NCBI RefSeq assembly: GCF_030686945.1 | Contig: NW_027122708.1 | Span: forward strand, 5,930,248 to 5,994,247 | Direction of reading: 5' to 3' | DNA from: Centruroides vittatus | Lineage: Eukaryota | DNA: 64,000 bases | Shown here: positions 7,257-56,640 of the stretch, piece by piece | Layout: every line of letters starts with the position of its first letter | How positions within the stretch are numbered: the stretch's first letter is position 1 | Program-made: the position numbers and the translations under genes | The notes under the pieces: generated by a model | The model's database searches: none | Seen by the model: the letters and a program-made list of their open reading frames with translations, nothing else | Told to the model about the DNA's origin: nothing

Positions 7257-8372
7257 ATTAGAACTTTTCTAAACGAAGGGTCCTTTCGTACTACTTCGTT
7301 TCAATTTTTCTCTAGATAGAAACCAACCTGGCTTACACCGGTTTGAACTCAGATCATGGAAACTTTTATAAGTCGAACAGACTTCCTATTATTGCTCTTG
7401 AGCAATAGAGGTAATTTAATCCAACATCGAGGTCACAAACATGTTTGTCAATTTGAGCTTTCAAAACATATTACGCTGTTATCCCTAAAGTAACTTATTT
7501 AAATTTCAAAAATTTTGGGTATTAAAATAATACTATCTTTAATTATCTAAAAGTGTTTTTCTTTCTGCCGCCCCAGCAAAACATATTCTTAATTTACTAA
7601 ATTTTCTTATGTAAAGTTTTATAGGGTGTTCTTGTCTAAAAGAGACATTTTAGCCTTCTTACTAAAAAGTGAAGTTTAAAATCAATAGTTAAGAAAGAAA
7701 TTTTCTAGTTTACCCTTTCATTCCAGTCTTAAATTACAAGACTAATTATTATGCTACCTTTGCACAGTCAAAATACCGCGGCCATTTATTTATACATCGA
7801 GCAGGGCTCATTTTTAATCATTTCAAAAAAATATGTTTTTGGTAAACAGACCAAAAATTTTAGACGAGTTACTTAACTTTTAATTGCTTTCTTAATTATA
7901 GATTAATTTTCTACTTATTTTAACATTATTACTATCATTAAATTATTCCATGGAAACTTTAATTAATTATTAGTTTATAAAACTAAAAATAACTTAATGA
8001 TAAAATTGAAGACAATCTTATTCCTCTAATAACAAATAATTATTTTTTAAACTTACATCTAATAAAGCTTGTCCTTTATTAGATAAAAATTTTCCAATCT
8101 TTGATGCTTATCTTAAAGAACCAGATATCAAATTAGGCGTTTAGCTTTTTACTTCAATAAATCAATTTACAATTACTTTAACACGTAAAAAATATTAATT
8201 TATAGCTCATAACTTTTCGGGAAAATTAAATCCTTTAATTAATTATTAAACCCTGATACAAAAGGTACGATATTCTCCTTTTTATATATTAAAAATACCC
8301 TTACAGTTAAGTTTTCTTCAATTTCAAACTATTACTAAAAAATGACTCCCTTCTTAATAATTTTCTAAAATA
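7257..8372 (-). rRNA. rrnL: Mitochondrial large-subunit (16S) rRNA, NUMT copy
   Basis: The 3'-domain motifs ccggtttgaactcagatcatg (7336-7356) and acgctgttatccctaaagtaa (7468-7488) are present as reverse complement. The 12S 3' end at 8441 fixes the upper bound. At about 1.1 kb it is shorter than a typical insect 16S. Confidence 0.75.
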
Positions 8373-18495: not shown

Positions 18496-19951
18496 TATGA
18501 GGCGTGTCCGGGAAGTAAGTACCGTTTTGGAAAAACTCGCATAAAAAATCTTTTTTCAAAACAAAATTTATTTTTACATGAAAGAGCATGTCGGAAACTA
18601 TCTTTCTACACAGTTACCACCATTGTTCAGACATTTGTCATATCGGGAAACCAATTTGTCTATACCCTCTTCAAAGAAAGATGCCACCAGTGAAGACAGC
18701 CACTGCTGAACATTGGTTGTTGCGTCGTCATCGCTGGCAAAGCGCCTCCCTCCAAAATCACGCTTCAAGTTCAAGAACAAATGGTAGTCTGCAGGTGTGA
18801 GGTCGGGGCTGTATGGCGGGTGATCAAACTGCTCCCAACCGAATTGTTGAATCATGTTTTGGGTGACACCAGCAGTATGGGGACGTGCGTTGTCATGAAG
18901 CAACACAATGCCTTTACTGGGACTTCCACGCCTTTTGTTTTGAATTGCATGGCGAGGTTTTCGCAATGTTTCACAGTATCGTTCTGCATTGATGGTTTCA
19001 CCTCTGGGAAGGAACTCAACAAGCAGAATGCCCTGTCTGTCCCAGAATACAGTATGGGAAATGTATGGATTAGTAGAAAATGTAGATGGATGAAATGGAT
19101 TAGTGGGAAATGTAGGTTTAGTAGCCGGTAAGTCATAAGACAGGTACGACATAATTAGGACGATGGGGGACGGCTGTCCCAGAATACAGTGCACATGATT
19201 TTTCGTGCTGACAATGTTGTTTTGAATTTGTGTTTTGTGGGGAACCATGAGTGCCTCCACTCCATTGACTGTTGTTTTGATTCTGGAGTGACATGACAAA
19301 CCCAAGTTTCATCACCGGTAACAATTTTGTTTAGGAAATCATTACCCTCTTCACTGTATCGGATAAGAAATGCCAAAGCACTTCCAAGTCGCTTCGTTCT
19401 GTGGACATCCGTAAGCATTTTGGAGACTCAATGGGAACACAATTTACGATAATTTAAGTGATTTGTGACAATCTCATGCAAAACAGTTTTTGAAATTTGT
19501 GGAAACTCATCACAAAGCAATCTTATTGTGAACCGTCTGTTTTCACGAATTTTCTCATTCACTTTTGCAACCAAACCATCATTGACAACAGAAGGCCGCC
19601 CACTCCATGCTTCGTCATGAACATTGTCCATCATTGAATTGTCAAACCCACTTTCTCACCATTCCATCACTCATTACATTTTCACCATAAATCTCTACAA
19701 GTTGACGATGAATTTCAACTGGCTTAACATTCTTTGCATTCAAAAACCATATTACAGAACGCACTTCACAGTCGACGGGATCGGCAATCGTCTTAAATAT
19801 TTTGAACGCTCACTAACATGTGAAAAAACAACACAATCTTTCATGGCGTCACTGGACTGACAATCAACCAGAAACACATATGCGCAGGCGCTGAACTGCG
19901 ATACTACTGCTGCGGTGGCAGTAGAACAAAACGATACTTACTTTCTGGACA
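18496..19951 (-). mobile_element. Mariner-like element of about 1.46 kb with 26-bp terminal inverted repeats tatgaggc(g/a)tgtcc(g/a)g(g/a)aagtaagta
   Basis: The terminal inverted repeats at 18496-18521 and 19926-19951 are reverse complements. The internal transposase ORFs carry mariner signatures. Confidence 0.8.
18598..19634 (-). pseudogene. Mariner transposase, frameshifted across three ORFs. N-terminal helix-turn-helix SGRPSVVNDGLVAKVNEKIRENRRFTIRLL; DD34D catalytic-domain motifs HDNARPHTA and HPPYSPDLTPADYHLF.
   Basis: Six-frame ORFs 19428-19634, 19155-19418 and 18598-19305. Signature mariner motifs are present. Several frameshifts make it non-functional. Confidence 0.8.
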
Positions 19952-33532: not shown

Positions 33533-36500
33533 TTAGTTTGTTTTGTTTTTATAAATGTCGATTATTTTACAAAAATAGTTATAAATTTTATATAAGTCTT
33601 TTTTACCCATTTTGTTGAAGTTTTTTAACAATTCTATTAGCGAATTGCATTTATAAGTTCGAGTTATGTCATAGTGTTCACGAATATCATTTAATTTTGG
33701 ACATTTTAATATTAAATGATAAGGTGTTGAATCATCGGAGTTACATAAGAAACATTTTGTTGATAAGCTTATGTAAGTGTTGTTAACATACAGCGAATTT
33801 TTATTTAAACGAAGTTGTGCTATAAAGCGTTTTACATTCAAGTTTACCGAATACAACATATATGATTGAACTGATGGTATTTTAAATATATCTAAGTACC
33901 ACGGATGATATTTACTGCTATGTAATGAGAACTGATCTTTGTTTATGGATTGTGCCATAGCTGAGTTTAAAAGTAGTGAGTAGCCTGTTTTCCAATCTTG
34001 AATGTTATCTTGAAATAGTAGTTCTGATACTCCAAAAGAGTTGAAGATAGTTTTTAATTTGTTATGCCATAGCTGTTTATTTTTTTGAAGTTTACTTTGC
34101 TTGATGTTTTCATGATATAGAGCAATCAAATTGTTGTCACTATTGAATTTGAGTCTGTAATAAAATTTAATGATTCGTTTTAATATGAACGGGAAAGACC
34201 ATATACGATTGGTTTCATGACGTAGTGCATATCCGGGTATTGTCCGTTCTAACTGAAATAATCTGCGTAGATAGTAAATATGGAATCGTTCTAATTTGTA
34301 GAGATAATCCAAGCTCCAAATGGGACTGGCGTAGAATATCATTGGATTAATAATCGAATTGTAAAGTTTCATGTGTATTCTTAAGTCAGAAGTTTTCAAT
34401 CTGCTGCATAAAAACAAAAGATTATCGATTGCTTGATTGACTTTATTGTTAAGTTTAGAAATGTGCGATTTAAATGTTAAGTTCCAGTCAAAATTAATTC
34501 CTAGGTAATTTATCTCATTGACAGTTTGTAGCAGGATATTTTCATGATAAATTTTTGTTTCGTTAACAGATATTTTACTGTTGTTCCGAAAAATAATTAT
34601 TTTAGTTTTACTTGGATTAACTGCTAAATATTTAGACTTAAAATGCGAATTTAATTGATTGATTTTCCTTTGGAGAGAAATTTTTGTCGGTGCTACCACA
34701 ACCAAGTCATCAGCAAAGAGAATATAATGAAATGCTTTATTGCCTATGAGTATACCATCGTTTACTTCAGAAAAAAGATGATCTATATCTTTCAAATAAA
34801 AGTTAAATAAATGTGGAGATAATGGATCTCCTTGAAGAATACCACGTGAATGCGTTAATGGTGGAAGAATGTTTTTACCGTGCTTGATCTTTATTTTATA
34901 ATTTTGAAATAATATTGATATTGTTCCTGTAAATTGAGAACTAGCACCACTCTCCTTAAGTTTTTGTTGTAAAAAAGGTACATATACTGAATCGAATGCC
35001 TTTTTAATATCTATAAAAGCAGCATACACTTTTCTATGTTTTTTTACGAGATATATTTGAATAATCATTAGCAAAGTAAATATCGCAAATTCGGTGCCTT
35101 TATTTTTTGTATAAGCAAACTGAAATTCTGCTTCTAACTCGTTGATTTTGATCCAATTTTGAAATTTTTTTGCAAGTATCGATGTAAAACATTTTCTAAG
35201 TGTAGATAACAAAGCTATAGGTCTATAGTTTTCTGGAGCCATCTGGTCTCCCTTTTTATAGATCATCGTCATGATTATGGAATTCCAAGATTCAGGATAG
35301 GACAATGTGCTGTACATAGCATTGAATATTTTCAATAATTTTATTTTAGATTCCGTTGGTAGCATTTTTAAGAATTTGGTTGGTATGTTATCATCCCCTG
35401 GGGTAGTATTGTTTTTTGTTTTTTGAATTACTTCGTCGAGTTCATTCATAGTCAAGTCAGCGTTTAAATAATCATCATAATAATTAATATTTCTTTCCAT
35501 TGGAACTTTTAAATTTTTTATAATGAAGCTTTGATAAAATTTCTTCCAAGTTTCGAATCTTATACAAATGTTAATATCTCCTAGATTAGCTTTTGGTCGA
35601 AATTTTCGGATAGTATTCCAAAATATTTTGCTATTATTACTATTATTTATTAAATTTGATTCAATTCTACAAAAGTAGTTTTTCTTTTTCGTCTTAATTA
35701 AGTTATTGTAGATTCGTTTGGAGTTTTTGTAATTAATCAAATTTTCTTTATTAGGATTTTGCCTGTAAATTTTTAAATCTTGTTGCTTTCGCCGTTTTTC
35801 TTTGTAACAATCTGAATCATACCAGATTTTTTTATTTTTATTTTGCGCGTATTTGTTATCCTTGTTTGATATTATATAATCATTCATGATATTCATCATT
35901 ATTTTGTATACCTCTTCACAGTTATTATTAGTTACTTCTAGCATATTTTTAAACCGATTTCCAATTTCGGACTCATAACTAGCCAATTTGTACTTTATCT
36001 TGAAGTTGTTGTTATATATATAATCCGAATTCTCAAAAGGAAATAAACGGAATTTTGCTATTGTAGGAAAATGATCTGAAATATCAAAATTCGTAGTCTG
36101 AAATTCTACACAACAATCTAAGAATAATTCAGAGCATATTGTGAAATCTATGGTCGAAGCACCCGTATTGGTCAAGCAAGTATGTTCAGCTGGAATATCC
36201 TGTTGAATTCTGCCGTTAAGAAGAAACAATCTGTGTTCTGTTAGCAACTCGATAAAGTTTTTACCCAATCTGTTGGTTTGTTTATCTTTCGAAAGACGTT
36301 TATTAGATATATTGAAATTGGCACCTTTATATTTTGAATCTATTAACTCACCAATCCTTGCATTAAAATCTCCCACTACCAAAATGAGCGGAGAAATATG
36401 ACTCCAACTTTCTAATGTTTTAAACATATTTTTTAAAGTACTTAGATCATCAGGCAGAATATAAGCAATTAATAATGTTATTAAATTATTCGTTTTATTT

Positions 36501-36814
36501 ACCAAAGTAGGCTTCTGTAATGAGATAAGAAGTAGCATATAATTGTTGAATTTTTTTATGTCAATTATTTTACCAAGGTTCTTTTTTATAAGGATACATA
36601 TACCTCCACTTGGACGGCCTGGACCTGTAGGTTTTTGTGCTTGAATCGATTCCACTATAAAGTTATTAAAAAATTTTGTTTTATAATACAAATTCGAAGT
36701 AATCCAAGTTTCAGTAATTGCTAAAATATCCGGATCGTATTTAACACAAAAATTATTTATTAGTGACGTTTTATTTTTTATTCCTTGGCCATTCCAGTTA
36801 GCAATGGAAACCAT
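33533..36814 (-). CDS. LINE ORF2 polyprotein of 1093 aa. N-terminal apurinic/apyrimidinic endonuclease (DILAITETW), reverse transcriptase (FADDLVVVA box) and C-terminal Cys motif CFLCNSDDSTPYHLILKC.
   Basis: Uninterrupted ORF starting with ATG. The domain order and motifs are those of LINE ORF2. Confidence 0.85.
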   Translation of the reverse strand: MVSIANWNGQGIKNKTSLINNFCVKYDPDILAITETWITSNLYYKTKFFNNFIVESIQAQKPTGPGRPSGGICILIKKNLGKIIDIKKFNNYMLLLISLQKPTLVNKTNNLITLLIAYILPDDLSTLKNMFKTLESWSHISPLILVVGDFNARIGELIDSKYKGANFNISNKRLSKDKQTNRLGKNFIELLTEHRLFLLNGRIQQDIPAEHTCLTNTGASTIDFTICSELFLDCCVEFQTTNFDISDHFPTIAKFRLFPFENSDYIYNNNFKIKYKLASYESEIGNRFKNMLEVTNNNCEEVYKIMMNIMNDYIISNKDNKYAQNKNKKIWYDSDCYKEKRRKQQDLKIYRQNPNKENLINYKNSKRIYNNLIKTKKKNYFCRIESNLINNSNNSKIFWNTIRKFRPKANLGDINICIRFETWKKFYQSFIIKNLKVPMERNINYYDDYLNADLTMNELDEVIQKTKNNTTPGDDNIPTKFLKMLPTESKIKLLKIFNAMYSTLSYPESWNSIIMTMIYKKGDQMAPENYRPIALLSTLRKCFTSILAKKFQNWIKINELEAEFQFAYTKNKGTEFAIFTLLMIIQIYLVKKHRKVYAAFIDIKKAFDSVYVPFLQQKLKESGASSQFTGTISILFQNYKIKIKHGKNILPPLTHSRGILQGDPLSPHLFNFYLKDIDHLFSEVNDGILIGNKAFHYILFADDLVVVAPTKISLQRKINQLNSHFKSKYLAVNPSKTKIIIFRNNSKISVNETKIYHENILLQTVNEINYLGINFDWNLTFKSHISKLNNKVNQAIDNLLFLCSRLKTSDLRIHMKLYNSIINPMIFYASPIWSLDYLYKLERFHIYYLRRLFQLERTIPGYALRHETNRIWSFPFILKRIIKFYYRLKFNSDNNLIALYHENIKQSKLQKNKQLWHNKLKTIFNSFGVSELLFQDNIQDWKTGYSLLLNSAMAQSINKDQFSLHSSKYHPWYLDIFKIPSVQSYMLYSVNLNVKRFIAQLRLNKNSLYVNNTYISLSTKCFLCNSDDSTPYHLILKCPKLNDIREHYDITRTYKCNSLIELLKNFNKMGKKDLYKIYNYFCKIIDIYKNKTN

Positions 36815-36868
36815 TTGATTATTCTTTATGACTTTGTTATGTTGCGTATATTTTTGCTTAACATGATA

Positions 36869-37843
36869 TCAACTGTCTGTATTTATTTGATTACTATAAG
36901 GACGAAAATTATTTACATAAACCAATTTGCTCAATTTTAGGCTATATGTTATTTTTTCTTGGTTAATCGTTAATATATCATTACGGAGTTTAACTTGGTC
37001 TTTTTGTTTTCGTAATTCATGAAGTATTGGGAGTAAATTTTTCTTTCTTATCCTTGAGTTTTTAGTCAAATCTGGGGATATTTGCATATCTTCCCATTCT
37101 TCTAATGCGTTTTTTTGTTGTTTCTTTTGAATAAAGGTATAGAAAAATTTATCACGAAGTTGCTTATTGCTGAATGTTATTCTTACTGTTGTATTAGGTT
37201 TCTTAGTTATTAAGTTTGTTTCTGTTATCTCAGTTTGGGCTATATCGTGAATGTTTAGTACATTAGTCATAAAGTTATATACTTCTAACGTAGATATGGA
37301 TTTCGAGCTTGGATATTTGTATACAATTATTTTTTTATAATTATAATCATTAATTAAAGAGTCTATTTTAAATTGCGTTAGTTCATTTTCACTTTTTTGA
37401 TTTTCTAGTTGTTGTTTTATATTTTTAATTTCTTCCTCCATATATATCTGTCTTTCCTTAGTCTCACGTATATCTTGACGTATTCGTTCTACGTCTTCTT
37501 TTATATAGACCATTTGTTCTAACAGTTTATCATTTGAAGCATTTATTAAATCTGATATTTTAGTCCATAGAAGTGCAGTTGTAGTGTCAAGTTGACTTGC
37601 TGGATTAGTAAGAAGGCTTGAATTAATATTAGGTGACTCACCTGTTGAGCCTAATGAATTCTGCTGACCAGGTTCCATATTTTGATTCGAGAATTCTTTT
37701 GTTCCTTCTTGTGAATCACTTTTCGGTTGTGTTCCGTAATCCGTAATGAGTTTGGAGCTTGAAGTGCTTGGTTGAGCTTGTTTGTTCTCTGTCCTCGTTC
37801 TGGTCAGTGGAGGTCTTCCACGCTTGACTGGAGATCTTTGCAT
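36869..37843 (-). CDS. LINE ORF1 protein of about 324 aa from the first ATG. Basic N-terminus, long coiled-coil (IKEDVERIRQDIRETKERQIYMEEEIKNIKQQLENQKSE) and a C-terminal putative RNA-binding region. There are no CCHC zinc knuckles, so it is of the L1-like type.
   Basis: The six-frame ORF 36869-37885 uses a non-ATG start. The first ATG is at 37841-37843. Confidence 0.7.
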   Translation of the reverse strand: MQRSPVKRGRPPLTRTRTENKQAQPSTSSSKLITDYGTQPKSDSQEGTKEFSNQNMEPGQQNSLGSTGESPNINSSLLTNPASQLDTTTALLWTKISDLINASNDKLLEQMVYIKEDVERIRQDIRETKERQIYMEEEIKNIKQQLENQKSENELTQFKIDSLINDYNYKKIIVYKYPSSKSISTLEVYNFMTNVLNIHDIAQTEITETNLITKKPNTTVRITFSNKQLRDKFFYTFIQKKQQKNALEEWEDMQISPDLTKNSRIRKKNLLPILHELRKQKDQVKLRNDILTINQEKITYSLKLSKLVYVNNFRPYSNQINTDS

Positions 37844-38524
37844 ATTATTATTTTTTTGTATTATTGCTTTTTCCTTTACCTTCACTTAGTTAGTGTTAGT
37901 TTAAACTTGTTTAATAATAAGTTAATCAAATAAACAGTAATTCACCACTTCGCTGCACAAATGAAAGGTTCACAGAAAAAGTCACTCGCAGCGCCCGACA
38001 AACTATATTTTTATATATAGATATATGGATAAAATATATTTTCTTTCTCAAAAAAATATTTTATTTAAATGTTAAATTACATATTGTGTTGATTTAACTT
38101 TTTCACTTTCTTTATAAATATATAGTAAAGGAATTTTATATTTAAAGTAACTTTTAAAAAAAAGACACAAATATAAGAAATGCTAAAAATTTAATCATGT
38201 TTTTTGGAATAAATATAATTTATTTAACTAATGCTATTGTTGAATTTATGAAAGAAAGTAAATGAGAACTGTTAAGCTGATGACTCCACAGTTTATTTTA
38301 ACAGATATTTTATTTTTAAATCTATCCATTGAGATTTAAGAGATAAGTTATTTAAGATTTGTATAAATATCATATAGATATTAATACCCTTTGTTAAAAT
38401 TAATTTATTCCATTTACATTCTTTATCCCTTCTGCAATTATTTTAGTTTTGATATCTCAAAAAATTATACATTTAACATATTTATGTAGTAATTTCTCTA
38501 AAATATTAAAATAATAATAAATGA

Positions 38525-38718: not shown

Positions 38719-39455
38719 AAAAAAATTTTAAGAATTTAATAAGAGTTTTTCTCTCTATCCTTGTATAAAATTTCTAAAAAAAATAATTTAAAGTAAAATT
38801 ATTAACAAGTTGATGGTCATTGATAACATGCATCATCATTAACTACATATACCACTAGATTTTTTGGGTAATAAATACTATAAGTAAGCCAATACTTATA
38901 ATTTGATATAATCCTAATTAAACATTTATGATTTTACAGAAAAAAAAAGGCTTAAAGCTGAATGTCGTACAATTGTGCTTCAAACTGTAGGTTTCCAAAT
39001 AATTTTAAATTACTATAAATTTCTTGCATATAAACAATAGAAAATTACTAAATGAAAATAAAACCTTTATATAACCCTCACTGTATTAAGGCAGCTCAAC
39101 ACATTCAATATTTGCCAAAGGCTAAACAAACATTTGGCCAATACTTACAAGGGAGTTTTTTCTCATGTCAGTCTTACATTTTAATAAAATATATATCAAT
39201 AAAAGAAAAAGATAAGACCCATATTTTTTCTTTTATCTGTCAGTTCAGCCAATCATGAGAAAATTTGGTTTTAAAATGTCCTAATTCACATAAAAATATA
39301 GCAATGGTGGCACAGTGACAGCATTGTGGCCAGACTGGAAATATTGAGGGATTGATACTGCTTGAGATTTTTACGTTTTATAGTTTAATGTAAATGTAAA
39401 GGAAAAATACAATGTTAGGTATACTAAATACTTAGATTGGACATCATGCCAACAG

Positions 39456-39700
39456 TTGTATTAACACAATTAAAAACTTCAGATAAGGAGGCGTTAAAGT
39501 AATTAAAAAAAATATTTTATTTGTGCAAGAGCAAGTGCAAGTAATTTACACACATCGTCCGCAGGCAGTTTGACTAAGAAGACGCCTGAGGATGACGTGC
39601 GTAAATTATGTCAAAAGCACTTGCACAAATAAAATATTTCTTTTAATTATTTTAACGCCTCCTTATCTGAAGTTTTTAATTTTGTTAAAAATACAATGTT
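39456..39700. mobile_element. Foldback MITE with about 85-bp inverted arms and a roughly 70-bp core that is itself partly palindromic
   Basis: acaattaaaaacttcagataaggaggcgttaaagtaattaaaa... is the reverse complement of ...ttttaattattttaacgcctccttatctgaagtttttaattttgtt. Confidence 0.7.
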
Positions 39701-42262
39701 TAACTCTCATTAATTATTTACAATGAGCACTTGAAATGAAGGCATTTCTATCACAATCTTCTAATGAAAACTTTGTTTTGGGAAATGTAAAATTTACATT
39801 GATAATATTAAAAAAACTAGTAATGTTCTCTTCTGTCACACAGCCTGACTTCTGACATGCATATATTAACATATGTTTAAAAATAGAAGCAAATAATTGG
39901 TTATATGTAAATTCCAGTCCAACCGCAATGCTACCACTGCACCATCAATGCTATATTTCTGCACAAATTAAAACATTTTAGAACCCTATTTCTCACAAAC
40001 AGCTGGCCTGACAGATAATGAAAAAATATGGGTCTTCTTATTCTTTTCTCTATCAAATAATATGTATTTTATTAAAATGTAAAACTGACATGAAAAAACC
40101 ATCCCTTGTTAGTAATGTCGATGGTTTACTTGTGATGAATATTTGGTATTTATCATGTGTGAAGCCGGCTGCAATTCTGAATTTTCCATTGAAAACATAA
40201 CTGGAATGTAATTTAGATTTTGTCTCATTGTTTTCTTCTCCCATTTCTTTTGTTTTATTTTTTTAAAGCAATTTATTGTAGATGTAGTTAATTGTAGTAT
40301 AAAATAACTGAAATGGAAAAAATGAAATATTTGAGATAAAATTATATAAAAATTAAATATCAAAAATATAAAGTGGCACTAAATAACAATTTTTTTGTTG
40401 TTTTGTTTCAGTTCTGTTTTCTTTATCAAAATACATAATAATAAACATGCTAAATGCTAAAATAGCCTAATATGTAAACAGAAAAACTTTTTAACGTTGA
40501 TATCTGCAGTATACTTTATTTTTGAAGAGCCCCTTGAAGTCAAGGGGCTCTTCAAGACAAATTTTCAAGACAAATTTGGGATGCAACAAGGCTATATAGG
40601 AACAAGTCTTGTAGCAGGAATGATTTCTTACCAAATGCCTTACCAGACACACAGTAAATAGAAAAAATAAATAATTTCCGTTAACATCATTATTGTTGAC
40701 TTTACTAAAAAAATTGCACATAAATTCTACAGTATCCAACAGCATGAGTCAAGAATTGACCACTTAACTCTTATTCACTGTAGAAAACTAACACTGGTTT
40801 CTAAATAGTTCTCTGAGAGGCATTACAAAAACAGGGAGGAATTACTGGAAATTAATCTGCTGTTAAGACACAACTTTAAGTAGAAGTGTCTAATAATGCC
40901 AACTAAAGTGTGGATTGATGTAAAGAAAATAACAGAGAAGTATAGTTGAGGCAAAAATATATATGCCTTTGATGGTTCCTAGAAAAATTGCAATGACTGT
41001 ATATATAAAATTTAGTCTAAAACTGGATCTCATACCTAAAAAGAAAGTCCATTCGACATTTTCTTCATTAAATCTAACAAAACCTTATTATTATATTTCC
41101 TTGCTATTATTCTCCAATTACTTCCTTTAGTTCCCTATTTCTTATTCTCCCAGCAATATGTAACATTGCACACATCTACTTTAAGAATCAAGCTGCCATG
41201 GTAGGAACTTGAAAACTTTGAAGCATTTACTAGCAAAATAAAGCAATTGCTGTTGAATTTATCATATCACTTTAGCTTTTACTTGAGAAGCTAGTAAACA
41301 CTACCTTTTACTACTAGTATAAGTATAAGTAAAAGCTTTTGCTTTTATTTGCAGGTGAAACGAAAGCTAGTTATCATTGATACAACTAAGCTATATGTAA
41401 GCTCGCTGACCTGGTAAAGATTGGAGACTTAAAATCCCACTTCTCAGACACCAGTGTAAGCTTGCCGACTTTTAGAGGGGGATCAATTAATCTAGCCTCA
41501 GGATGAACCTAAGGGATGTTTGCATGTGAGTGTGGTGGAGGAGACAAATGACAAGTGTCTTACAAAGTTAAAATCTGTTTATTTTGTAGCATTTATGCTT
41601 ACATCAATGCTTGACAGTTCCAAATCTTAATGTTCTTTTGGAGTAGCAAAAGTTTGTTCTATCGGTCATAATCCTGGGGCAGAGGAGATGGACTCACTAG
41701 ATGGATGTGGATGATCGCTGGAGATGCTGTGGCATCCTAAGAGGTTGACAGCGACACAACACAATTTAAAAAGCACGACTTTGAGCTTAATCCAAAAGAA
41801 GACTGTCTTTGACCTTGAATTATCAATTTTTATAGTTTTTCTCCCACTATCTGTATTTCTGATTGGCCCCTCATCCTATTCCTTGCGTCCCAATTGGTCT
41901 CTCCTTTGTTTCCAGGTGAAAACCGAGGCCTACTCGGGTCATGAGAAAGGTCCAAATTAAGGTGTTTATTCGACACCTTTTTGTCAACTATGCCCGGAGA
42001 TTGTTGATAGAACCATAAGATTTGCACTCATAATTTAGCCCATTGTTTGTGATTTCTGTCATCTTGGAACTTTAACAATCATATGTGATGTTTTTCTATT
42101 CATCAAATCTTCCCCTTTTCCGAAACTGTTTTCCTAGATCAACTGTTTATGAGCACTTGAGTCAAAGTTCAACCTTTCCTGACAGACATTCCATCTGATC
42201 CTTTGTTGTTTGTTTTCGCATTGCATTTGTTTGACAATTAGCTTTGTTAATAAATTAAAATA

Positions 42263-42812
42263 TTATCTTTTCTTCTTATTTACTTCTATACTTAACTTTA
42301 ATAACAAGCAGTACATGTTTACATCTTTAATTTCCACCGTACAACCTTGAACAGCATGATTATTGTTATCTTCACAATGATATTGAATAATTCCACCAAG
42401 ATAATCCTGCCAAGTTGTGGAATCAACACTAGCGACCAAAGGGCCATGAAATGCCATTAATTTTAGCATTTCTTCTTCTGATCCTTTTAAATCTTCACAG
42501 GTATAATTAAATTTTAATTCTATTCCTTTTTTTGGTCTTATGGCTTTACAGTTTGTCTCTTTGTCAGTTAAAGGATATTGTTTTTCAGTTAAAATTTTCA
42601 CTTTATTCTCATACATCCAGTCTAAGACCTCAAAAGTATCTCCACCATCATAACCACAGTTTGTTCCAGTTGCACAATCTATTACTTGCTGCACATTCAA
42701 TTCTACAAGTTCACCTGTCTTTAAAGCATTCATACTTTCTAATGTTTCTACAGTACTAAACGTCCAACATGCACCACATTCCTTCTGACTTTTCACTGGA
42801 GTAACAATTCCA
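42263..42812 (-). pseudogene. Papain-family (C1A, cathepsin-L-like) cysteine-protease fragment. It covers the mature-domain N-terminal roughly 170 aa (PGIVTPVKSQKECGACWTFS...DCATGTNCGYDGG...NHAV) with no propeptide and no intron, and is frameshifted at its 3' end.
   Basis: The conserved Q19 and C25 region QKECGACWTFS, the GCxGG-like block and the His region are recognisable. The copia RT fragment abuts it in-frame upstream. Confidence 0.6.
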
Positions 42813-43443
42813 GGTTTCCTCCTGGCTTTATATATTCATTTTCACTCTTCTTTCTGTATATCCACTTCACATCAATTACCCTTTTGTCTTTGGGAGGCTT
42901 GCTTACAAGTGTCCATGTATTGCTTATCACAAGACTCTCCATCTCAGAATTCATTGCTGCTTTCCATTTCTTTGAATCATCAAATGTCATTGCCTCCTGA
43001 AAATTTTCTGGAACCGTAGCATCACAGTAATTTACACTTATACAGTAATAACCAAATTCTTCATCAAAATGGAGTGGATGTTTAATTAGTCTTCCTGATC
43101 TTTTTCCTTTCTTCTTTTCTTCATCATCTTTTATCTCATCATTACTATTTTCTTCATGTGTTTTGTCCTTTTCCAAGTCTTTTGTCATATCTTTTTCTTT
43201 CTGATTTGTATTAGTGGAATCTTCTTCTTCGTTCTCCTTTGTTTGGTCTGAATCCTTTTGTCTTTCTTCCTTATCTTCATTCTTTTCCTCTTCCTCATTT
43301 TTGAATCCACACAAAGTTACATCTTCTTCTATTATGTCACAGTGTCTAGCCATTATAACTCTGCTATTCACCAATACTCTATATCTGGTGTCTGTATATC
43401 CAAGTAAAATTCCAACTTCCATTTTCTTGTCCCACTTCCATTT

Positions 43444-44136
43444 TCATTTTTCTTCTGGAATTCTTATAAATACTTTACTTCCATACATTTTTAGATTTTT
43501 TACTGATGGCTTCCTTTTGAAAAATATTTCATATGGCATTTTTCTCTCAATGGTGTTAGTTAAGGTTCTGTTTTTAAGATATGCAGCTGTTTTAATTACT
43601 TCTGGCCAAAATCTTCTTTCATTCTTTGCTTCTGATAAGAGACATCTCCCCATATCCATTAATGATCAATTGTATCTTTCTGCAGTTCCATTTAGTTCAT
43701 GCACATATGCTGGACAAGGTTTTATTATTATTCCTTTTTCTTTTGCAAACTTAAAAACTCTTGCATTCATATACTCCTTCCCATTGTCACATCGCAGTTC
43801 CTTTATCATCTTTCCAGACAAGTTTTGTATTTCATTAATATACTGCACTAAGCATTCATATACCTCATCTTTTGTCTGGATACAATAAATTTTAACTATT
43901 TTGTTATAGTCATCTATGAAGTTTAAGAAATATTTTTCTCCAAGATTTCCTGTAGTTTGATGTGGTTCATTTAAATCTGTATGTACAATCTCTAATATGT
44001 CTTCTGCTCTTCTCCTGTTGTTATGAAATGGTAAGTTATGCATTTTGTTTTCAATACATGTAGCACAATTTAAATATTCTGGTTCAATCTCACTGGGTAG
44101 TCTGTCTAATGATTCATTTTTACACATTATTTCCAA
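43444..44136 (-). pseudogene. Copia integrase core (HTDLNEPHQT...FIDDYNKIV...LRCDNGKEYMN...PCPAYVHELNGTAERYN and its continuation), frameshifted
   Basis: The rve-domain DDE pattern H..D / D / E is present in ORFs 43666-44136 and 43444-43659. Confidence 0.75.
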
Positions 44137-44542
44137 GTTGTTAAAATTGATATGTCCAGTTGTTTTCTACGTAGTTTTTCTTTTATAGTCATATTGCTTT
44201 TACTCATGTTTGCTTGTGATTTTTTTTCATTGATATAACTTTTCATTTTATATAGTTTATCCTCTTTATTGCAACAGCTATCAGCCTTCCATATGGGTTG
44301 TATATTTTGGAGAATTTCCCTCTTGAAACAACTGAATGTTTGTCTGTGATTTTTGAATAACTTAACAAATTTGCTTTCATATCTTTTACAAAAAAAAAAA
44401 AAAAAACATTTTCCAATGTCACCTCAGAATTTTGTCCACAAACTGGGAAACAAGTTTTAATATTACCAACTTTTGTAGCTTCTAATATTCTTCCATCATC
44501 AATTTTTACAATATAATAAGAAATGCTTACTGGAACAAAAAA

Positions 44543-44687
44543 ATCAGAAATTAAATCTATTACACGCCTTTAAAGTATCCAGCATACTGTTAAATTTTCA
44601 TAAGAACGTTTTCGATCACTTTTAGAGATCTTAAATTTAACAGTATGCTGGATACTTTAAAGGCGTGTAATAGATTTAATTTCTGAT
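44543..44687. mobile_element. Hairpin MITE of about 145 bp inserted in the copia gag-integrase region, with 55-bp inverted arms
   Basis: atcagaaattaaatctattacacgcctttaaagtatccagcatactgttaaattt ... is the reverse complement of the right arm. Confidence 0.65.
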
Positions 44688-44977
44688 TTTTAATCAATTT
44701 TTACTTTTACTGATTCCTTCAATGTCTCACAGGTTTCAAAATACTCATCAGTGTTAATAATATGGTCTGTGTAACCACTACCAAGTAACCATTCTATTTC
44801 ATCTTTCCCTGGCTTTTTGTTTTTACTTGTTTTATAAGTATTGTTTGCAATGGTAACCTGAAAACTATTTCCTTGATATTCATGTATGCATTGATGATAA
44901 TTTCCTTATCCTCTCTGAAAGTTTCTGGCATTGAACAATCCATGTCCTCGATAAACAGAAAAACCACGACCTCCACC

Positions 44978-45724
44978 TCAGTTTTCAACTTCAGAACGAC
45001 AATTTCTTTTTAAATAGCCAGGTTTACCACAGCTGTAACATTTCAACTTATTCTGAAATGATGACCTGGCTTCAGCTCGAAATACATTTGATCTATCATT
45101 TGACTCTTCATTAGAATTTTCCTCGGCACTTTTTAACTTTATTTTGCTTTTCAGATAGTCAACAGTTCTCTCCTTTTCTGGTAAAACATCTATTAAACCA
45201 CCAATATGACTATAATTCTGTGGTAGCAATTTTAACATGTAGTTTAATTTTTCTTGCTCTGATATTATAGCACCTGCCTGCTTTAATTCATTCACAGCTT
45301 TTTCAAATGCGTTGAAGAATAAGCATACATCTGAATAATTTTTAAATTTGATACTTTCGAGGTTATGTTGGCACACAATTTGCAGAGCTGTTGACTTTTT
45401 CAGATACATTTCATCAAACTTTTGGATAATTTCATAAGCTGTATCGAGTTTGCTTATGTATTCTAGCTGTTTGTTAGTTATTCCACTGTAGATATAGTTA
45501 GTTGCCTGTATATCTCATTTGTCCCATTCATCATCGTCAGATTTAATTTTAGCCCTCATTACCACATCTTTACACTCTTTGAACTGTAGAAACTTGAACA
45601 TACATAATTTCCAGTTACTATAGTCTGCTCCATCAAATATTGGAATATTAATATCACTGTTTTTCACTGCCATTACCACGTGTGCTCTTTCTTTGTTTTC
45701 TTGAACTAATTTAACCTCTTTCAC
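44978..45724 (-). pseudogene. Copia gag in two ORFs. The N-terminal UBN2-like region reads IPIFDGADYSNWKLCMFKFL. The C-terminal zinc knuckle reads CYSCGKPGYLKRNC.
   Basis: Motifs recognised in ORFs 45515-45724 and 44978-45409. Confidence 0.75.
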
Positions 45725-45730
45725 TTCTTT

Positions 45731-45782
45731 CTTGTTAATTGATTACATTCATCTGGCAAGATGAATGTAATCAATTAACAAG
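45731..45782. repeat. Perfect 22-bp-arm hairpin cttgttaattgattacattcat-ctggcaag-atgaatgtaatcaattaacaag, immediately 5' of the copia gag start
   Basis: Seen directly. Confidence 0.75.
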
Positions 45783-46715
45783 TTTTTTTTTCTCTTCCAT
45801 CTCCCTTACATAATTAACATCACCTTTAATCCAACTCGACAATAGTGTTTTCGCTTTTTATTAATTTAATTAAATTTTTGTTTTGTCCCATTCCAGAACC
45901 TCACATATATGAATCGTCTTATCTTCAAGTAAAAACTTATGCTTAACTTTAATCACATGATTCATTGTCTTGATCTTGCTCTAACTTTTATTAATTTTGT
46001 TTTTTACTGATACTAAAAAAAAGCAATAAGTTACAATTTATCACTTACAATACATGTCTCCAATACATATATTTCTTTCTATAAAACAAACCTTTTGAGT
46101 AAAGTTTTCTTCTGTAAGAAGATATTTTCAGTATTTGGATCTTATATTGTAACCAGGCATTGCCAATGGCATGTACAGGTATACCTCGCCTTACATTGGT
46201 AATTGGTTCCAAGAGAGGCGACGTAAGTCGAAAAACAATATAAGTTGAATTTACTTGTGTAGTTACGATGTAAGTCGAAAGTACGGGAAAACACCAATAA
46301 CAAGCACTTAAAGACGCTAAATAAGATGACAACACAGAAACACAGATGTTTTCATGTTTCGTTCTCTAGGATTTATGATGATTATATTAACATTTATTGT
46401 AAATGTAAATATTTTAATATGATTTTATGTGCTTTTAATGCTTTTCTGGTGATATTACAACTTCAATATTTGTGGCGAGCAGATGTAAAGTCGAATAAAA
46501 TGACTTAAACTTGATTTTTATTTTTCCATATACTTTTTTGACAAACGACGTATAATTGGGAACAACGTAACTCAAAACAACATAACTTGAGGTATACCTG
46601 TATATATATTTTTTAGTTAGTACATAAGTTGCACATATTTGGAGGTGCCTTCAAATCAGTTGCACAGAAAAGGGCAGGAAATTGGCTGGGGATTGTTACG
46701 CAGCCTCTTGGCATG

Positions 46716-47283
46716 GTGATGCATCGCTTTTGTGCGTTAATGCATATTGTAACTATATATGTTCGTATTTAAGTATGTATTGTTCACAGATGTATTTAGC
46801 ATATTTTTGTTAGTTTGTAAGAAGGTATTTTTGCTATTTGGATCTTATATTGTCACCAGGCGTTGCCAGTGGCCGTGCTGCTGTTTGCAATGAACACTGG
46901 CACTTGTTGCATGTATATTTTTTTTAGTTAGTATGGTTGTTTATTTTAACAAATATTTCTCATCAATACCACTATCAGAAAAAATTAAATTGGCAGACAT
47001 AAGCACAGAAAAATGTCTACAACAGTTTCCAAACACATTCATTTAACTAATTATGTGCAACTTACATACAAACTAAAAAAATATACATGTGACAAGTGCC
47101 AGTGTTAAGTGCAAACAGCAGCACGGCTACTGGCAATGCCTGGTGACAATATAAGATACAAATAGCAAAAATACCTTCTTACAAACTAACAAAAATATGC
47201 TAAATACATCTGTGAATAATACATACTTAAATACGAATATATATAGTTACAATATGTATTAACACACAAAAGCAATGCATCAC
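46716..47283. mobile_element. Foldback element with about 215-bp inverted arms and a roughly 135-bp core. Partial related copies lie at 46090-46185 and 46605-46640.
   Basis: gtgatgcatcgcttttgtgcgtt...ggatcttatattgtcaccaggcgttgccagtggccgtgctgctgtttgca is the reverse complement of the right arm tgcaaacagcagcacggctactggcaatgcctggtgacaatataagat...aacacacaaaagcaatgcatcac. Confidence 0.7.
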
Positions 47284-48120
47284 TATTCTACTATAAAAAT
47301 TCTTTTTACAAAAAACTATAAATTTTACTTCTAATTGGTGTTTTTGTAAATTCATTGCACTCACCTTTTAAATTTTATCATTCTATTTTTCTTTATAGTA
47401 TCAGTAAATTCCTTCAGACATGATTTGTTTATGTTGGAAAATAACAGACTAAAATGTAGAATAAGATTACTAGAGGAAGGAGCGAAATACACTTTGATGT
47501 AAAAAATTCTTTGTTCTATTACCATGGTAAATCATTTAAGGTAGTTTTCCAATATGTAGGGCCTGAGACTTTATTGCAAGGAGTGCGCAGCTTTTATCAA
47601 ATTATCATTTTTTAATACAAACAAACAAAAAAAAAGTCAAATTGATGTAAAAAAATAATAAATCAGCAGAATGGCTATGCCTAATTCACAACCCTTGTCC
47701 TATGACTTGGGTATGAATGCTAAAAATCCAACCACACTCTTGCCAAAATGTCTTGACATGAATAGAGCCCTGGCAAACAATATACTTTATTTAATAAGGT
47801 ATATTGATTTGCAGGCCATTAAATAAATTATAAGAACACTATTTATGAAATTAGATTGTTACAAAAATTGTGGGGTGCAACAAATTTTTTCTGAAAAAGG
47901 GGGGGTGCAAAGGCACAGAAAGTTTGGAAACCACTAATTTAAGGAGTTGTGTCTCAAAACCATGAGAAACTCTTAGAGAAAAGTTACCAGACAATACCTA
48001 TTTAAAGCATTAAATTAAACCATTAAGGGAATAACAAAGCATTTATAAAATAACAACACAACCTAGCTACATCTATCTATACAAATATATATCCCACATA
48101 CACTATCCCAAACTGGATGT

Positions 48121-48443
48121 ATGCAATATAAGAACACAACTAGTTAAAAGAACAAAAACATTTATTAAATAACAAACATTTTCAACCTTTATAAATGCCA
48201 TCTTCAAGTTCTACTGGTAGAACGGAAAATTGAACAACAAGATATATTTAAAAATGTTCATTGCAAAAGAAGTTCACATATGCAGGAGCTTAGTAATATA
48301 TTATAAATTAAAATAGAACATTAAAACATTTTTAAAAAAAACATATCTTGTTCAATTTTCCATTCTACCAGTAGAACCTGAGGATGACCTTTATAAAGGT
48401 TGAAAATGTTTCTTTTCTAAATGTTTGTGTTCTTATATTACAT
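48121..48443. mobile_element. Foldback MITE with about 125-bp arms and a roughly 90-bp spacer
   Basis: caatataagaacacaac...ttcaacctttataaatgccatcttcaagttctactggtagaacggaaaattgaacaa is the reverse complement of the right arm. Confidence 0.7.
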
Positions 48444-55589: not shown

Positions 55590-56640
55590 TATATAAAGGT
55601 GATAATAAAGATAAGACTATTCCAGGGTCATATAAGCCCATATGTTTAGTACCATTGCTGGGCAAAATATTTGAATGAATCATTAAAAACAGACTAGAGT
55701 CTGTAATACAAAGGTATAATAATGAGTACCAGTATGGCTTTAAAAATCAGTGCTCAAGAGATCGTTAATAAGTCTTGTAGCAAATACATTTTGGGTATAT
55801 TCTTTGATATAAAAGGTGCATTTGATCACCCATGGTGGCCCTCCATTCTAAGGGAGCTTTTATATAGGAAATGTCCTGGTGAATTATATAGATTACTAAG
55901 GGACTATTTATCATACAGAGGGGTGATGTATGAGGAGGGTGACCAAAAGATATACAAAAATGTAAATGGGCCATCCCCAGGGATCGTTCTTGGACCTGTC
56001 CTCCGGAATCTGGTGTTTGATGGTTGCCTCAGGGTTTTAAATGAGAATTGCATAGAGTATGTTGCTTATGCTGATGATCTGATTTTACTTATATCCAATA
56101 ATTTGAGAAGTGAGCTAGAGTCCCATGGTAAAATGTGGGTGATGAGGTTACAGAAATGGCTTGTGGCTAATAAATTAGAATGTCGTCTTATCCATTGTCT
56201 GTGGATAAGATGGTGCCAATATTACTAAAAGGTAGCTTGTTGAAAGAATGGCTGCCAAGAGTCATACTGAATGATAAAGTAATAAAGATAGCTGACTCAG
56301 TAAAGTATCTTGGTATTATTATTGGGGATAGTATGAGTATTACACCACATGTCAACTATATCACAGAACAGTCTATTAAGAGCTTCTGCCTATTAAAGCA
56401 GAATATAAGAATAGGGCTCCAGTTTCACAACTCTTTGTATATTATATAAGAGTTTGTTTTTAAGTGTTTTAAGTTATGGTATTTTAGCATGGCATGACCT
56501 TTTAAAAAATTATCATAAGGTCAAATTAGAAAGAACTCAAAGAATGGTTCTATTGATTTTAACTAAGGCATATAATACTACATCTACGGTAGCTCTTCAG
56601 GTGATAAGTGAGCTTTTACCTATAGATTTAGTTAAATAAA
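55590..56640 (+). pseudogene. 5'-truncated, frameshifted non-LTR retrotransposon RT fragment (YKPICLVPLLGKIFE, FDIKGAFD, GPSPGIVLGPVL, YADDLILLIS, then downstream SVKYLGIIIGD and YGILAWHDL blocks)
   Basis: Reverse-transcriptase motifs 1 to 7 in order across ORFs 55722-56228, 56180-56449 and 56454-56639. Confidence 0.75.

What the first reader, a model, noticed from the sequence alone, without database searches (positions are those of the whole stretch)
42263..42812. Cathepsin-L-like protease fragment fused in frame to a truncated copia RT
The copia RT N-terminus stops at YKAR, which matches the conserved RYKARLVA block. In the same frame the sequence continues directly as the mature N-terminus of a papain-family protease (RKPGIVTPVKSQKECGACWTFS…). 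It is intron-less, has no propeptide, and is 3'-frameshifted near the catalytic His. This sharp in-frame junction is what template switching during copia reverse transcription onto a cathepsin mRNA would produce, making it a retro-captured host-gene fragment. Alternatively it is a chance juxtaposition of two pseudogenes.
Basis: partly seen in the sequence, partly recalled or inferred. Interest (0 to 1): 0.55.

Follow-up and report, generated by a model that had tools for sequence, protein, structure and literature searches.

The report
Dead copia–cathepsin O chimeric retrocopy
A decayed copia retrotransposon in a scorpion genome is fused to an intron-free piece of the host cathepsin O gene, starting exactly at the first base of exon 4; this is a clear example of a known process (retroelement capture of host exons), and the locus is a non-functional pseudogene.

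Summary
On the minus strand, a degenerate Ty1/copia element (gag-PR-IN-RT N-terminus, 45690-42822) ends at the conserved YKAR block. It is joined directly to 475 nt (42821-42347) that are 94% identical to the CDS of Centruroides cathepsin O, not cathepsin L.

The parental gene (C. sculpturatus, locus L002) has 10 exons. The fragment is exons 4-7 plus the first 145 nt of exon 8, with four introns precisely removed, so it came from spliced mRNA.

The copia/cathepsin junction falls on the first base of exon 4. That favours a spliced copia-to-cathepsin read-through transcript, with a cryptic donor CAG|GT at YKAR|L, over a random template switch.

There is no 3' frameshift. Homology simply stops inside exon 8, three codons after the catalytic His, and unrelated DNA follows.

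A 2-bp TA insertion breaks the RT frame 10 nt before the junction. The copia part carries at least 5 stops, frameshifts and a palindromic insertion. I could not identify any LTR, PBS, copia 3' part or poly(A).

The fragment has lost two disulfide cysteines and lacks the catalytic Asn, so it is a dead chimera. It belongs to a known kind, LTR-retrotransposon-mediated retroposition or transduction. Interest is modest.

The parts
44696..45690 (-). Copia gag and the N-terminal part of the protease / beta-barrel region. Degenerate, with 3 in-frame stops.
   Evidence: Pfam Retrotran_gag_2 5.6e-18, DUF4219 and Pol_BBD. 73% nt identity to Ignelater luminosus copia L004 1226-2221. tblastn 67% aa identity with 3 stops.
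44539..44691 (.). Palindromic (self-complementary) insertion of about 153 nt that interrupts the copia PR region. The gap in copia homology is 44510-44695.
   Evidence: Self-inverted match at 86%. Homology to relatives skips 44695-44510.
42838..44509 (-). Copia PR C-terminus, integrase (zinc finger, rve core, SH3-like), acidic linker and RT N-terminus. Contains at least 2 frameshifts (around 44300-44160) and 2 stops.
   Evidence: Pfam rve 1.8e-08, SH3_retrovirus 1e-11, RVT_2 positions 2-28. 77.5% nt identity to L004/L006/L007. Frame changes -1/-3/-2 and stops.
42829..42834 (-). TATATA: a 2-bp (TA) insertion relative to GAA TAT AAA GCC in relatives. It shifts the RT frame 10 nt before the junction.
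   Evidence: Sequence. Alignment with L003/L005.
42822..42832 (-). Last copia bases, TATAAAGCCAG (Y-K-A-R codons; the R codon is completed by the first base of exon 4). This is the inferred position of a cryptic 5' splice site, CAG|GT.
   Evidence: Relatives read TAT AAA GCY AGR YTA GTN. The Euphydryas copy has GCT AG|G TTA GTG; three others have AGA.
42765..42821 (-). Cathepsin O exon 4 equivalent (57 nt). It starts at the first base of exon 4 and contains the catalytic Cys153 (42769-42767).
   Evidence: Exon map of L002. Alignment of CDS 405-461.
42608..42764 (-). Cathepsin O exon 5 equivalent (157 nt). Carries R190C, C192Y and C198F (loss of conserved cysteines).
42537..42607 (-). Cathepsin O exon 6 equivalent (71 nt).
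42492..42536 (-). Cathepsin O exon 7 equivalent (45 nt).
42347..42491 (-). First 145 of the 167 nt of cathepsin O exon 8. Includes the catalytic His290 (42358-42356). Homology ends at Q293.
   Evidence: 97% identity to L002 21796-21940. No further homology in any frame.
42263..42346 (-). Unrelated sequence into which the open frame runs on by chance until TAA. It is neither cathepsin nor copia.
   Evidence: No match to the parental CDS or gene, to copia RT/RNase H, or to the region upstream of gag.

Best explanation
The locus is a dead, chimeric retro-derived copy. The 5' two-thirds of a Ty1/copia element (gag-PR-IN and the first ~30 residues of RT) is joined to spliced exons 4-8' of the host cathepsin O mRNA.

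Most likely route (inferred):
1. A copia copy sat in sense orientation in, or upstream of, intron 3 of the cathepsin O gene.
2. Transcription from the element read through into the gene.
3. A cryptic 5' splice site in the RT coding sequence (...AAA GCC AG|GT..., the YKAR|L codons) was spliced to the normal acceptor of exon 4. Introns 4-7 were removed normally.
4. The resulting copia-cathepsin RNA carried the element's 5' leader and was reverse-transcribed and inserted. This is the scheme known for retroviral oncogene transduction and for LTR-mediated retroposition.
5. The 3' end, inside exon 8, was made either by a non-homologous template switch or by later deletion. The copy then decayed.

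Shown: the copia identity and its truncation at YKAR; the cathepsin O origin; removal of four introns; the junction at exon 4 base 1; the end of homology inside exon 8; the disabling mutations.

Inferred: the donor GT in the progenitor element; the former intronic or upstream insertion; which RT made the copy.
For: - Closest proteins are Centruroides cathepsin O-like (93% aa), then Tityus (82%).
- Parental gene structure: 10 exons with a unique GT-AG solution. Exon 4 starts GAGGAAACG after ...ttgcag.
- The window aligns to CDS 404/405-879 at 94% identity without gaps, and to five separate genomic exons of L002.
- No other cathepsin O exons occur in the 64 kb window.
- The junction maps to exon 4 base 1 with only 1-2 nt of ambiguity. 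With 9 exon junctions in 1032 nt of CDS, a random breakpoint would do this about 2.6% of the time (arithmetic).
- Both the inferred copia donor and the intron 3 acceptor are phase 2, which explains the local in-frame join.
- A related copia (Euphydryas, L005) has GCT AG|GTTAGT at exactly this site (8/9 match to CAG|GTRAGT). A single synonymous AGA>AGG change would create it in the other relatives.
- There is no poly(A), and the fragment is 3'-truncated rather than 5'-truncated. That is the LTR-type signature, not the LINE-type one (criteria in PMC5131818).
[quoted passage not shown] Intronic TEs are spliced into host transcripts in Drosophila (PMC7605248).
- Decay: at least 5 stops, at least 2 frameshifts, a 153-nt palindromic insertion and a 2-bp insertion in the copia part. 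C192Y and C198F; 11 of the 12 aa differences from the C. sculpturatus parent are absent from every scorpion orthologue compared.
Against: - The donor GT cannot be seen in this copy, and no intact copy of the same family from the same genome was available. Only 1 of 4 relatives has GT there.
- No copia remnant is present in the C. sculpturatus cathepsin O locus.
- No LTR, PBS, PPT or copia 3' sequence was found on either side. The defining 'flanked on both sides by the element' feature of LTR-mediated retrocopies is therefore unmet on the 3' side, and the RT source is unknown.
- Ignelater relatives carry independent deletions starting about 15 nt upstream of the same site. This region may therefore be a recombination or template-switch hot spot.
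- Pairwise dN/dS against C. sculpturatus is 0.23, lower than expected for a pseudogene compared with its own parent. The simplest reading is that the window comes from a different Centruroides species than L002, but this was not tested.
Confidence: 0.55

Rival explanations
1. Template switching during reverse transcription, which is the first reader's model and the Tan et al. 2016 model. An RT copying cathepsin O mRNA (or a partly spliced RNA retaining intron 3) jumped to copia RNA at YKAR, guided by microhomology. The coincidence with the start of exon 4 is accidental, or arises because CAG|G acceptor sequences match copia's CCAGG.
For: - This mechanism is documented for LTR-mediated retrocopies in flies, mosquito, fish, chicken and mammals. 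Those retrocopies are partial, 3'-truncated and lack poly(A) (PMC5131818).
- Microhomology is present: 1-2 nt (G/GG) on spliced mRNA, or 3-4 nt (CAG/CAGG) if intron 3 was retained. The window matches L002 three bases into the intron.
- Three of four relatives lack a GT at the site.
- Ignelater copies show independent deletion breakpoints within about 15 nt of this site.
Against: - A random switch would land within +/-1 nt of an exon junction only about 3% of the time.
- Microhomology on the mature mRNA is 1-2 nt, against a median of 6 bp in the reference study.
- The intron-retention variant needs a 2.6-kb intron kept while four downstream introns were removed.
- The model predicts copia sequence 3' of the captured piece. 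None was found.
Confidence: 0.27
2. DNA-level juxtaposition. An ordinary (for example LINE-made) processed cathepsin O pseudogene and a copia copy lay next to, or nested in, each other. Later deletions removed the copia 3' part and both ends of the retrocopy, leaving an accidental join.
For: - The region is TE-dense and old: stops, a palindromic insertion, MITE-like inverted repeats.
- An apparently intact LINE (APE + RVT_1 ORF2 and an ORF1) lies 4.4 kb away on the same strand, so LINE machinery exists in this genome.
- No LTRs, and no copia sequence 3' of the fragment.
Against: - It needs several coincidences at once: same orientation, same local frame, a breakpoint exactly at exon 4 base 1, and another at the conserved YKAR block.
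- The LINE hallmarks are missing. There is no poly(A), and the cathepsin piece is truncated at its 3' end.
Confidence: 0.12
3. Host cathepsin O gene, or a genomic duplicate of it, interrupted by a copia insertion.
For: The parental gene does have an exon boundary exactly at the junction.
Against: - Four introns (0.8-3 kb each in L002) are missing from the fragment.
- No intron 3 sequence, and no exons 1-3, 8' or 9-10, occur anywhere in the window.
- The junction is to internal RT sequence, not to an LTR end.
Confidence: 0.02

Closest known systems
LTR-retrotransposon-mediated retroposition (chimeric retrocopies; Tan et al. 2016, Genome Res, PMC5131818)
   Same: A partial, intron-free copy of a host mRNA replaces internal ORF sequence of an LTR element. 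It lies in the same orientation, has no poly(A) and is 3'-truncated. The blastopia-associated cases in that paper also rejoin the element at a fixed site near an exon-exon junction.
   Different: Here only the 5' side is element sequence. No LTRs or 3' element part were detectable. Microsimilarity on the mature mRNA is only 1-2 nt, and the junction is exactly at an exon start. The host is a chelicerate (scorpion), a lineage not sampled in that study.
Retroviral oncogene transduction via read-through or spliced chimeric RNA plus non-homologous recombination (Swain and Coffin 1992 model; cited from general knowledge and)
   Same: The 5' junction is at a host exon acceptor, introns are removed from the captured part, and the 3' junction is at a non-homologous point inside an exon. 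The captured fragment replaces pol sequence and makes the element defective.
   Different: The element donor is inferred, not observed. The 3' element sequences required for replication are absent. There is no evidence that the chimera ever propagated or that the captured piece had any function.
[quoted passage not shown] 2006; summarised in PMC13317346)
   Same: A copia-type LTR retroelement carries spliced fragments of cellular genes fused in frame to element ORFs.
   Different: Bs1 retains its LTRs, is transcribed, and encodes an expressed hybrid protein. The scorpion locus is LTR-less as far as can be determined and is riddled with stops.
LINE-type processed pseudogene or bipartite chimeric retrogene
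   Same: Intron-free copy of an mRNA. An apparently intact LINE is present nearby.
   Different: No poly(A). The 3' end of the mRNA is missing rather than the 5' end. The 5' partner is internal retrotransposon coding sequence.

Membership tests
Peptidase C1A, cathepsin O (as a derived fragment) | Significant match to Peptidase_C1, and closest homologues are cathepsin O orthologues | tested here: met
   PF00112 at 1e-31. The top 50 or so hits are named cathepsin O; Centruroides 93%, Tityus 82%.
Peptidase C1A, cathepsin O (as a derived fragment) | Complete catalytic apparatus (Cys, His, Asn) with an I29 propeptide, i.e. a functional enzyme | tested here: not met
   Cys153 and His290 are present. 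The Asn-bearing exons 8'-10 and propeptide exons 1-3 are absent. Disulfide cysteines are lost (C192Y, C198F).
Ty1/copia LTR retrotransposon | copia-type gag, with domain order PR-IN-RT (integrase before RT) | tested here: met
   Retrotran_gag_2, Pol_BBD, rve, SH3_retrovirus, then the RVT_2 N-terminus in that order on the minus strand. 73-78% nt identity to insect copia copies.
Ty1/copia LTR retrotransposon | Complete RT/RNase H | tested here: not met
   Only RVT_2 profile positions 2-28 are present. There is no RT or RNase H homology elsewhere in the window.
Ty1/copia LTR retrotransposon | Flanking LTRs, PBS and PPT | tested here: not met
   No direct repeats bracket the element. No tRNA-iMet PBS like that of the Ignelater relative. 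The leader and LTR are not alignable to relatives, so heavy decay cannot be excluded.
LTR-mediated retrocopy (Tan et al. 2016) | Intron-free partial copy of a multi-exon parental gene | tested here: met
   Exons 4-8' are contiguous; the parent has introns at all four junctions.
LTR-mediated retrocopy (Tan et al. 2016) | Flanked on both sides by discontinuous parts of one LTR element | tested here: not met
   The 5' side is copia. The 3' side is unrelated sequence.
LTR-mediated retrocopy (Tan et al. 2016) | Microsimilarity at the fusion points (median 6 bp) | tested here: inconclusive
   5' junction: 1-2 nt on mature mRNA, 3-4 nt if intron 3 was retained. 3' junction: the partner sequence is unknown.
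LTR-mediated retrocopy (Tan et al. 2016) | Absence of poly(A), with 3' truncation | tested here: met
   Homology ends at CDS nt 879 of 1032. No A-rich tract follows.
Splice-mediated (oncogene-type) transduction | Host side of the 5' junction is exactly an exon acceptor | tested here: met
   The window's GAGGAAAC... begins at exon 4 base 1, after the parental ttgcag.
Splice-mediated (oncogene-type) transduction | Element side of the junction is a 5' splice site (GT/GC follows in the intact element) | tested here: inconclusive
   The progenitor was not available. Among relatives, 1 of 4 has AG|GTTAGT and 3 of 4 have AGA.
Splice-mediated (oncogene-type) transduction | Element insertion in or upstream of the donor gene, or chimeric RNA reads | not testable with these tools
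   No copia sequence is present in the C. sculpturatus cathepsin O locus L002. No scorpion genome or RNA-seq search was available.
LINE-type processed pseudogene | Poly(A) tail, intact 3' end with 5' truncation, TSDs | tested here: not met
   No poly(A), and the 3' end is missing. TSDs are not assessable because the ends of the insertion are undefined.

The most novel reading that the evidence does not exclude
The chimera is, or was, a transposing non-autonomous copia derivative that captured cathepsin O exons by an oncogene-style route: an RT-internal splice donor joined to exon 4, followed by a non-homologous 3' recombination. It belongs to a copia lineage that appears to have moved horizontally between arthropod orders (about 77% nt identity between scorpion and click-beetle copies). 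If so, it would be a concrete vehicle for shuffling, and potentially transferring, host exons in chelicerates.
Probability: 0.1. Interest if true: 0.6.

Novelty: new member of a known kind. Interest (0 to 1): 0.3.

Why it matters
Capture of host exons by LTR retrotransposons is a recognised source of chimeric genes and exon shuffling, but few cases have a junction that says how the chimeric RNA arose. Here the join sits on the first base of a host exon and on a codon pair that forms a near-consensus splice donor in a related element. This makes the locus a compact, testable example of splice-mediated transduction as opposed to template switching, in a lineage (scorpions) where retrocopy mechanisms have not been examined. 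For the organism it has no functional consequence, because the copy is dead.

Tried and rejected
- Looked for the rest of cathepsin O (exons 1-3, 8'-10) in the window in all frames with lenient settings. None found, so this is not the host gene and there is no frameshifted continuation.
- Looked for LTRs and copia 3' sequence. Direct-repeat search over 20 kb, self-BLAST, sensitive comparison of the 1.7 kb upstream of gag with the 1.8 kb downstream of the fragment (best score no better than shuffles), tblastn with RT/RNase H of five relatives, PBS search and PPT/poly(A) search were all negative.
- Tried to get the C. vittatus parental locus (P0001, P0064). Not on record.
- Tried to find the window's own contig through its intact LINE ORF2. 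Not on record. A homology search gave only distant hits of 35% or less, so the species could not be named that way.
- Searched for other copies of the chimera. The protein search with a query spanning the junction returned only normal cathepsin O proteins and one copia fragment. Exact junction pattern scans of metagenome contigs and genome contigs returned nothing, but these collections do not hold scorpion genomes.
- The search for related loci for copia relatives in metagenomes found nothing.
- Looked for a same-family intact copia to read the bases after GCCAG. Only insect and unnamed relatives were obtainable. The closest (Ignelater) copies are deleted across this very block.
- Considered purifying selection on the fragment because pairwise dN/dS is 0.23. 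Rejected as evidence of function: the catalytic Asn is missing, two disulfide cysteines are lost, and the synonymous excess is explained if L002 is from a different Centruroides species than the window.

Full report
**What is there**

The window is AT-rich (30% GC) eukaryotic DNA. Reading the minus strand from about 45690 down to 42263 gives the following:
- a copia-type gag (Pfam Retrotran_gag_2, 5.6e-18);
- a Pol beta-barrel/protease region;
- an integrase core (rve) and the retroviral SH3-like domain;
- a long acidic linker;
- the first ~27 profile positions of the copia RT (RVT_2 positions 2-28);
- immediately after, a papain-family domain (Peptidase_C1, 1e-31).

**Identity of the protease and of the genome**

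I ran a protein search with a query spanning the junction. It hit cathepsin O, not cathepsin L:
- Centruroides vittatus cathepsin O-like, 93% identity;
- Tityus serrulatus, 82%;
- then other arthropod and vertebrate cathepsin O proteins.

No hit covered both halves of the query. The 90% cluster also contains the C. sculpturatus protein XP_023229439, whose genomic locus could be fetched as L002 (KZ494388.1). A short interspersed repeat at window 414-532 is 93% identical to a repeat in L002. The window therefore comes from a Centruroides-like buthid scorpion.

**Relationship to the parental gene**

Fitting the protein to L002 gives a unique GT-AG solution with 10 exons.
- The window aligns to CDS nt 404/405-879 (residues 136-293) at 94% identity (447/476) with no gap.
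- The same stretch maps to five separate genomic exons of L002: exons 4, 5, 6, 7 and the first 145 nt of exon 8.
- Four introns have thus been removed precisely, so the fragment came from spliced RNA.
- No other cathepsin O exon is present anywhere in the 64 kb, in any frame.
- Homology stops at Q293, three codons after the catalytic His and 22 nt before the end of exon 8. What follows (42346 onward) matches neither the parental CDS or gene nor copia.

The ORF merely stays open by chance to 42263.

**The junction**

On the minus strand the sequence reads ...GAA TAT AT A AAG CCA G|GA GGA AAC CTG G...

- Intact relatives read ...GAA TAT AAA GCY AGR YTA GTN GTN (E-Y-K-A-R-L-V-V). The window therefore carries a 2-bp TA insertion (TATATA, 42834-42829), which throws YKAR out of frame with the upstream RT.
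- Before that insertion, the RT frame ran straight into the cathepsin frame.
- Copia homology ends at GCCAG (42826-42822).
- Cathepsin homology begins at 42821, which is the first base of exon 4. Parent: intron ...ttgcag|GAGGAAACG, preceded in the mRNA by ...GATTG.
- Only 1-2 nt are ambiguous between the two sources.
- With nine exon junctions in 1032 nt of CDS, a random breakpoint would fall this close to one about 2.6% of the time.
- The inferred copia donor and the intron 3 acceptor are both phase 2, which accounts for the in-frame join.

**Mechanism**

The exact use of an exon acceptor is what a spliced chimeric transcript would give. In that scheme, a copia lay in sense orientation in or upstream of intron 3, transcription read through, and a cryptic donor in the RT (...GCC AG|GT...) joined to exon 4. 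Downstream introns were removed normally. The RNA, carrying the element's 5' end, was then reverse-transcribed.

- The Euphydryas relative has GCT AG|GTTAGT at precisely this position (8 of 9 matches to CAG|GTRAGT).
- Three other relatives have AGA, one synonymous transition away.
- This is the scheme known for retroviral oncogene transduction. It fits within 'LTR-mediated retroposition' as described for animals by Tan et al. 2016 (PMC5131818).
- TE-internal splice sites are used in host-TE chimeric mRNAs in Drosophila (PMC7605248).
- The absence of a poly(A) tract, and the loss of the 3' rather than the 5' part of the mRNA, argue against a LINE-type processed pseudogene. An apparently intact LINE (APE + RVT_1 ORF2, plus an ORF1) does lie 4.4 kb away.

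**What does not fit, or is unknown**

- I could not find any LTR, PBS, PPT, or copia RT/RNase H sequence 3' of the fragment. The 'flanked on both sides' criterion of LTR-mediated retrocopies is not met, and the integrating machinery is undetermined. The 3' end could reflect a non-homologous switch or a later deletion.
- The donor GT is inferred, because no same-family intact copy from a scorpion was obtainable.
- The nearest relatives (Ignelater luminosus) are themselves deleted across this block. L006/L007 lack about 23 codons including YKARLV. L004 lacks the whole RT, from KKKSN to the RNase H DWAGD motif. This hints that the region may be a recombination-prone spot, which keeps the template-switch model alive.
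- No copia remnant is present in the C. sculpturatus cathepsin O locus.

**State of the copy**

The copia part has at least five in-frame stops, at least two frameshifts, a 153-nt palindromic insertion (44539-44691) and the 2-bp insertion.

The cathepsin part has no stop, but 29 substitutions:
- 14.5 are synonymous and 14.5 non-synonymous, giving a pairwise dN/dS of 0.23 against C. sculpturatus.
- Eleven of the 12 amino-acid differences are changes away from the residue conserved in C. vittatus and C. sculpturatus.
- These include loss of two conserved cysteines (C192Y, C198F) and R190C.
- The catalytic Asn and the C-terminal third are missing.
- The excess of synonymous differences is most simply explained if L002 is from a different Centruroides species than the window. 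This is an inference and was not tested.

There is no sign of function.

**Verdict**

The locus is a genuine retro-derived copia-cathepsin O chimera, now a pseudogene. The junction evidence favours a spliced read-through RNA (about 0.55) over a plain template switch (about 0.27) or a DNA-level accident (about 0.12). 'Host gene interrupted by copia' is excluded. The locus is a new example of a known kind of event. It is instructive mechanistically but not surprising.

Noticed in passing
window 42838-45690 (-) compared with L004, L006, L007 (Ignelater luminosus), L005 (Euphydryas editha) and L003 (Logan DRR352995): The scorpion copia is 73-78% identical at the nucleotide level (70-85% aa) to copia copies in a click beetle and in butterflies. 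No closer annotated relative turned up in Centruroides. That is unexpectedly high for lineages separated since the Cambrian, and it suggests horizontal transfer of this copia family among arthropods.
   Followed up: partly
L004 3793-3830; L006 about 10300; L007 about 7590: The Ignelater relatives carry deletions that begin at the same RT N-terminal spot (KKKSN). L004 is a young copy (LTRs 98-100% identical) lacking the RT, joined directly to the RNase H DWAGD motif. L006/L007 lack about 23 codons including YKARLV. The breakpoints lie within about 15 nt of the window's junction, so this may be a recombination hot spot.
   Followed up: partly
window 33533-37885 (-): An apparently intact non-LTR retrotransposon: a 338-aa ORF1 and a 1093-aa ORF2 with APE endonuclease and RVT_1 domains and no stops. 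Its closest database relatives are only 35% identical or less.
   Followed up: partly
window 7310-7859 (-): Two adjacent matches to the bacterial-type LSU rRNA model (positions 1790-2647; 131 and 68 bits) inside nuclear-looking DNA. This is probably a fragment of mitochondrial 16S rRNA inserted in the nucleus (NUMT).
   Followed up: no
window 2284-2461 (-): A full-length U2 spliceosomal snRNA match (63 bits, model positions 1-192).
   Followed up: no
window 44539-44691; 39461-39688; 48145-48437; 45731-45782; 46713-46935 with 47065-47286; 39139-39340 with 39912-40117: Several palindromic or inverted-repeat (foldback/MITE-like) segments. One is inserted in the copia protease region and one in the leader just upstream of gag. 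A 58-nt piece at 46113-46170 resembles the arms of the 46713/47065 inverted repeat.
   Followed up: no
window about 41830-41910 (-): A GC-richer stretch with two CCAAT motifs (GACCAATTGGG, GGCCAATCAGA) followed by CTATAAAAA. It looks like a promoter and lies about 450 nt downstream of the end of the cathepsin fragment. Seen by eye in the sequence; no gene or LTR could be assigned to it.
   Followed up: no
window 18598-19305 (-); 55722-56228 (+): A mariner/Tc1-like transposase fragment (Transposase_1, DDE_3) and a further RVT_1 fragment. The window as a whole is a TE-dense region.
   Followed up: no
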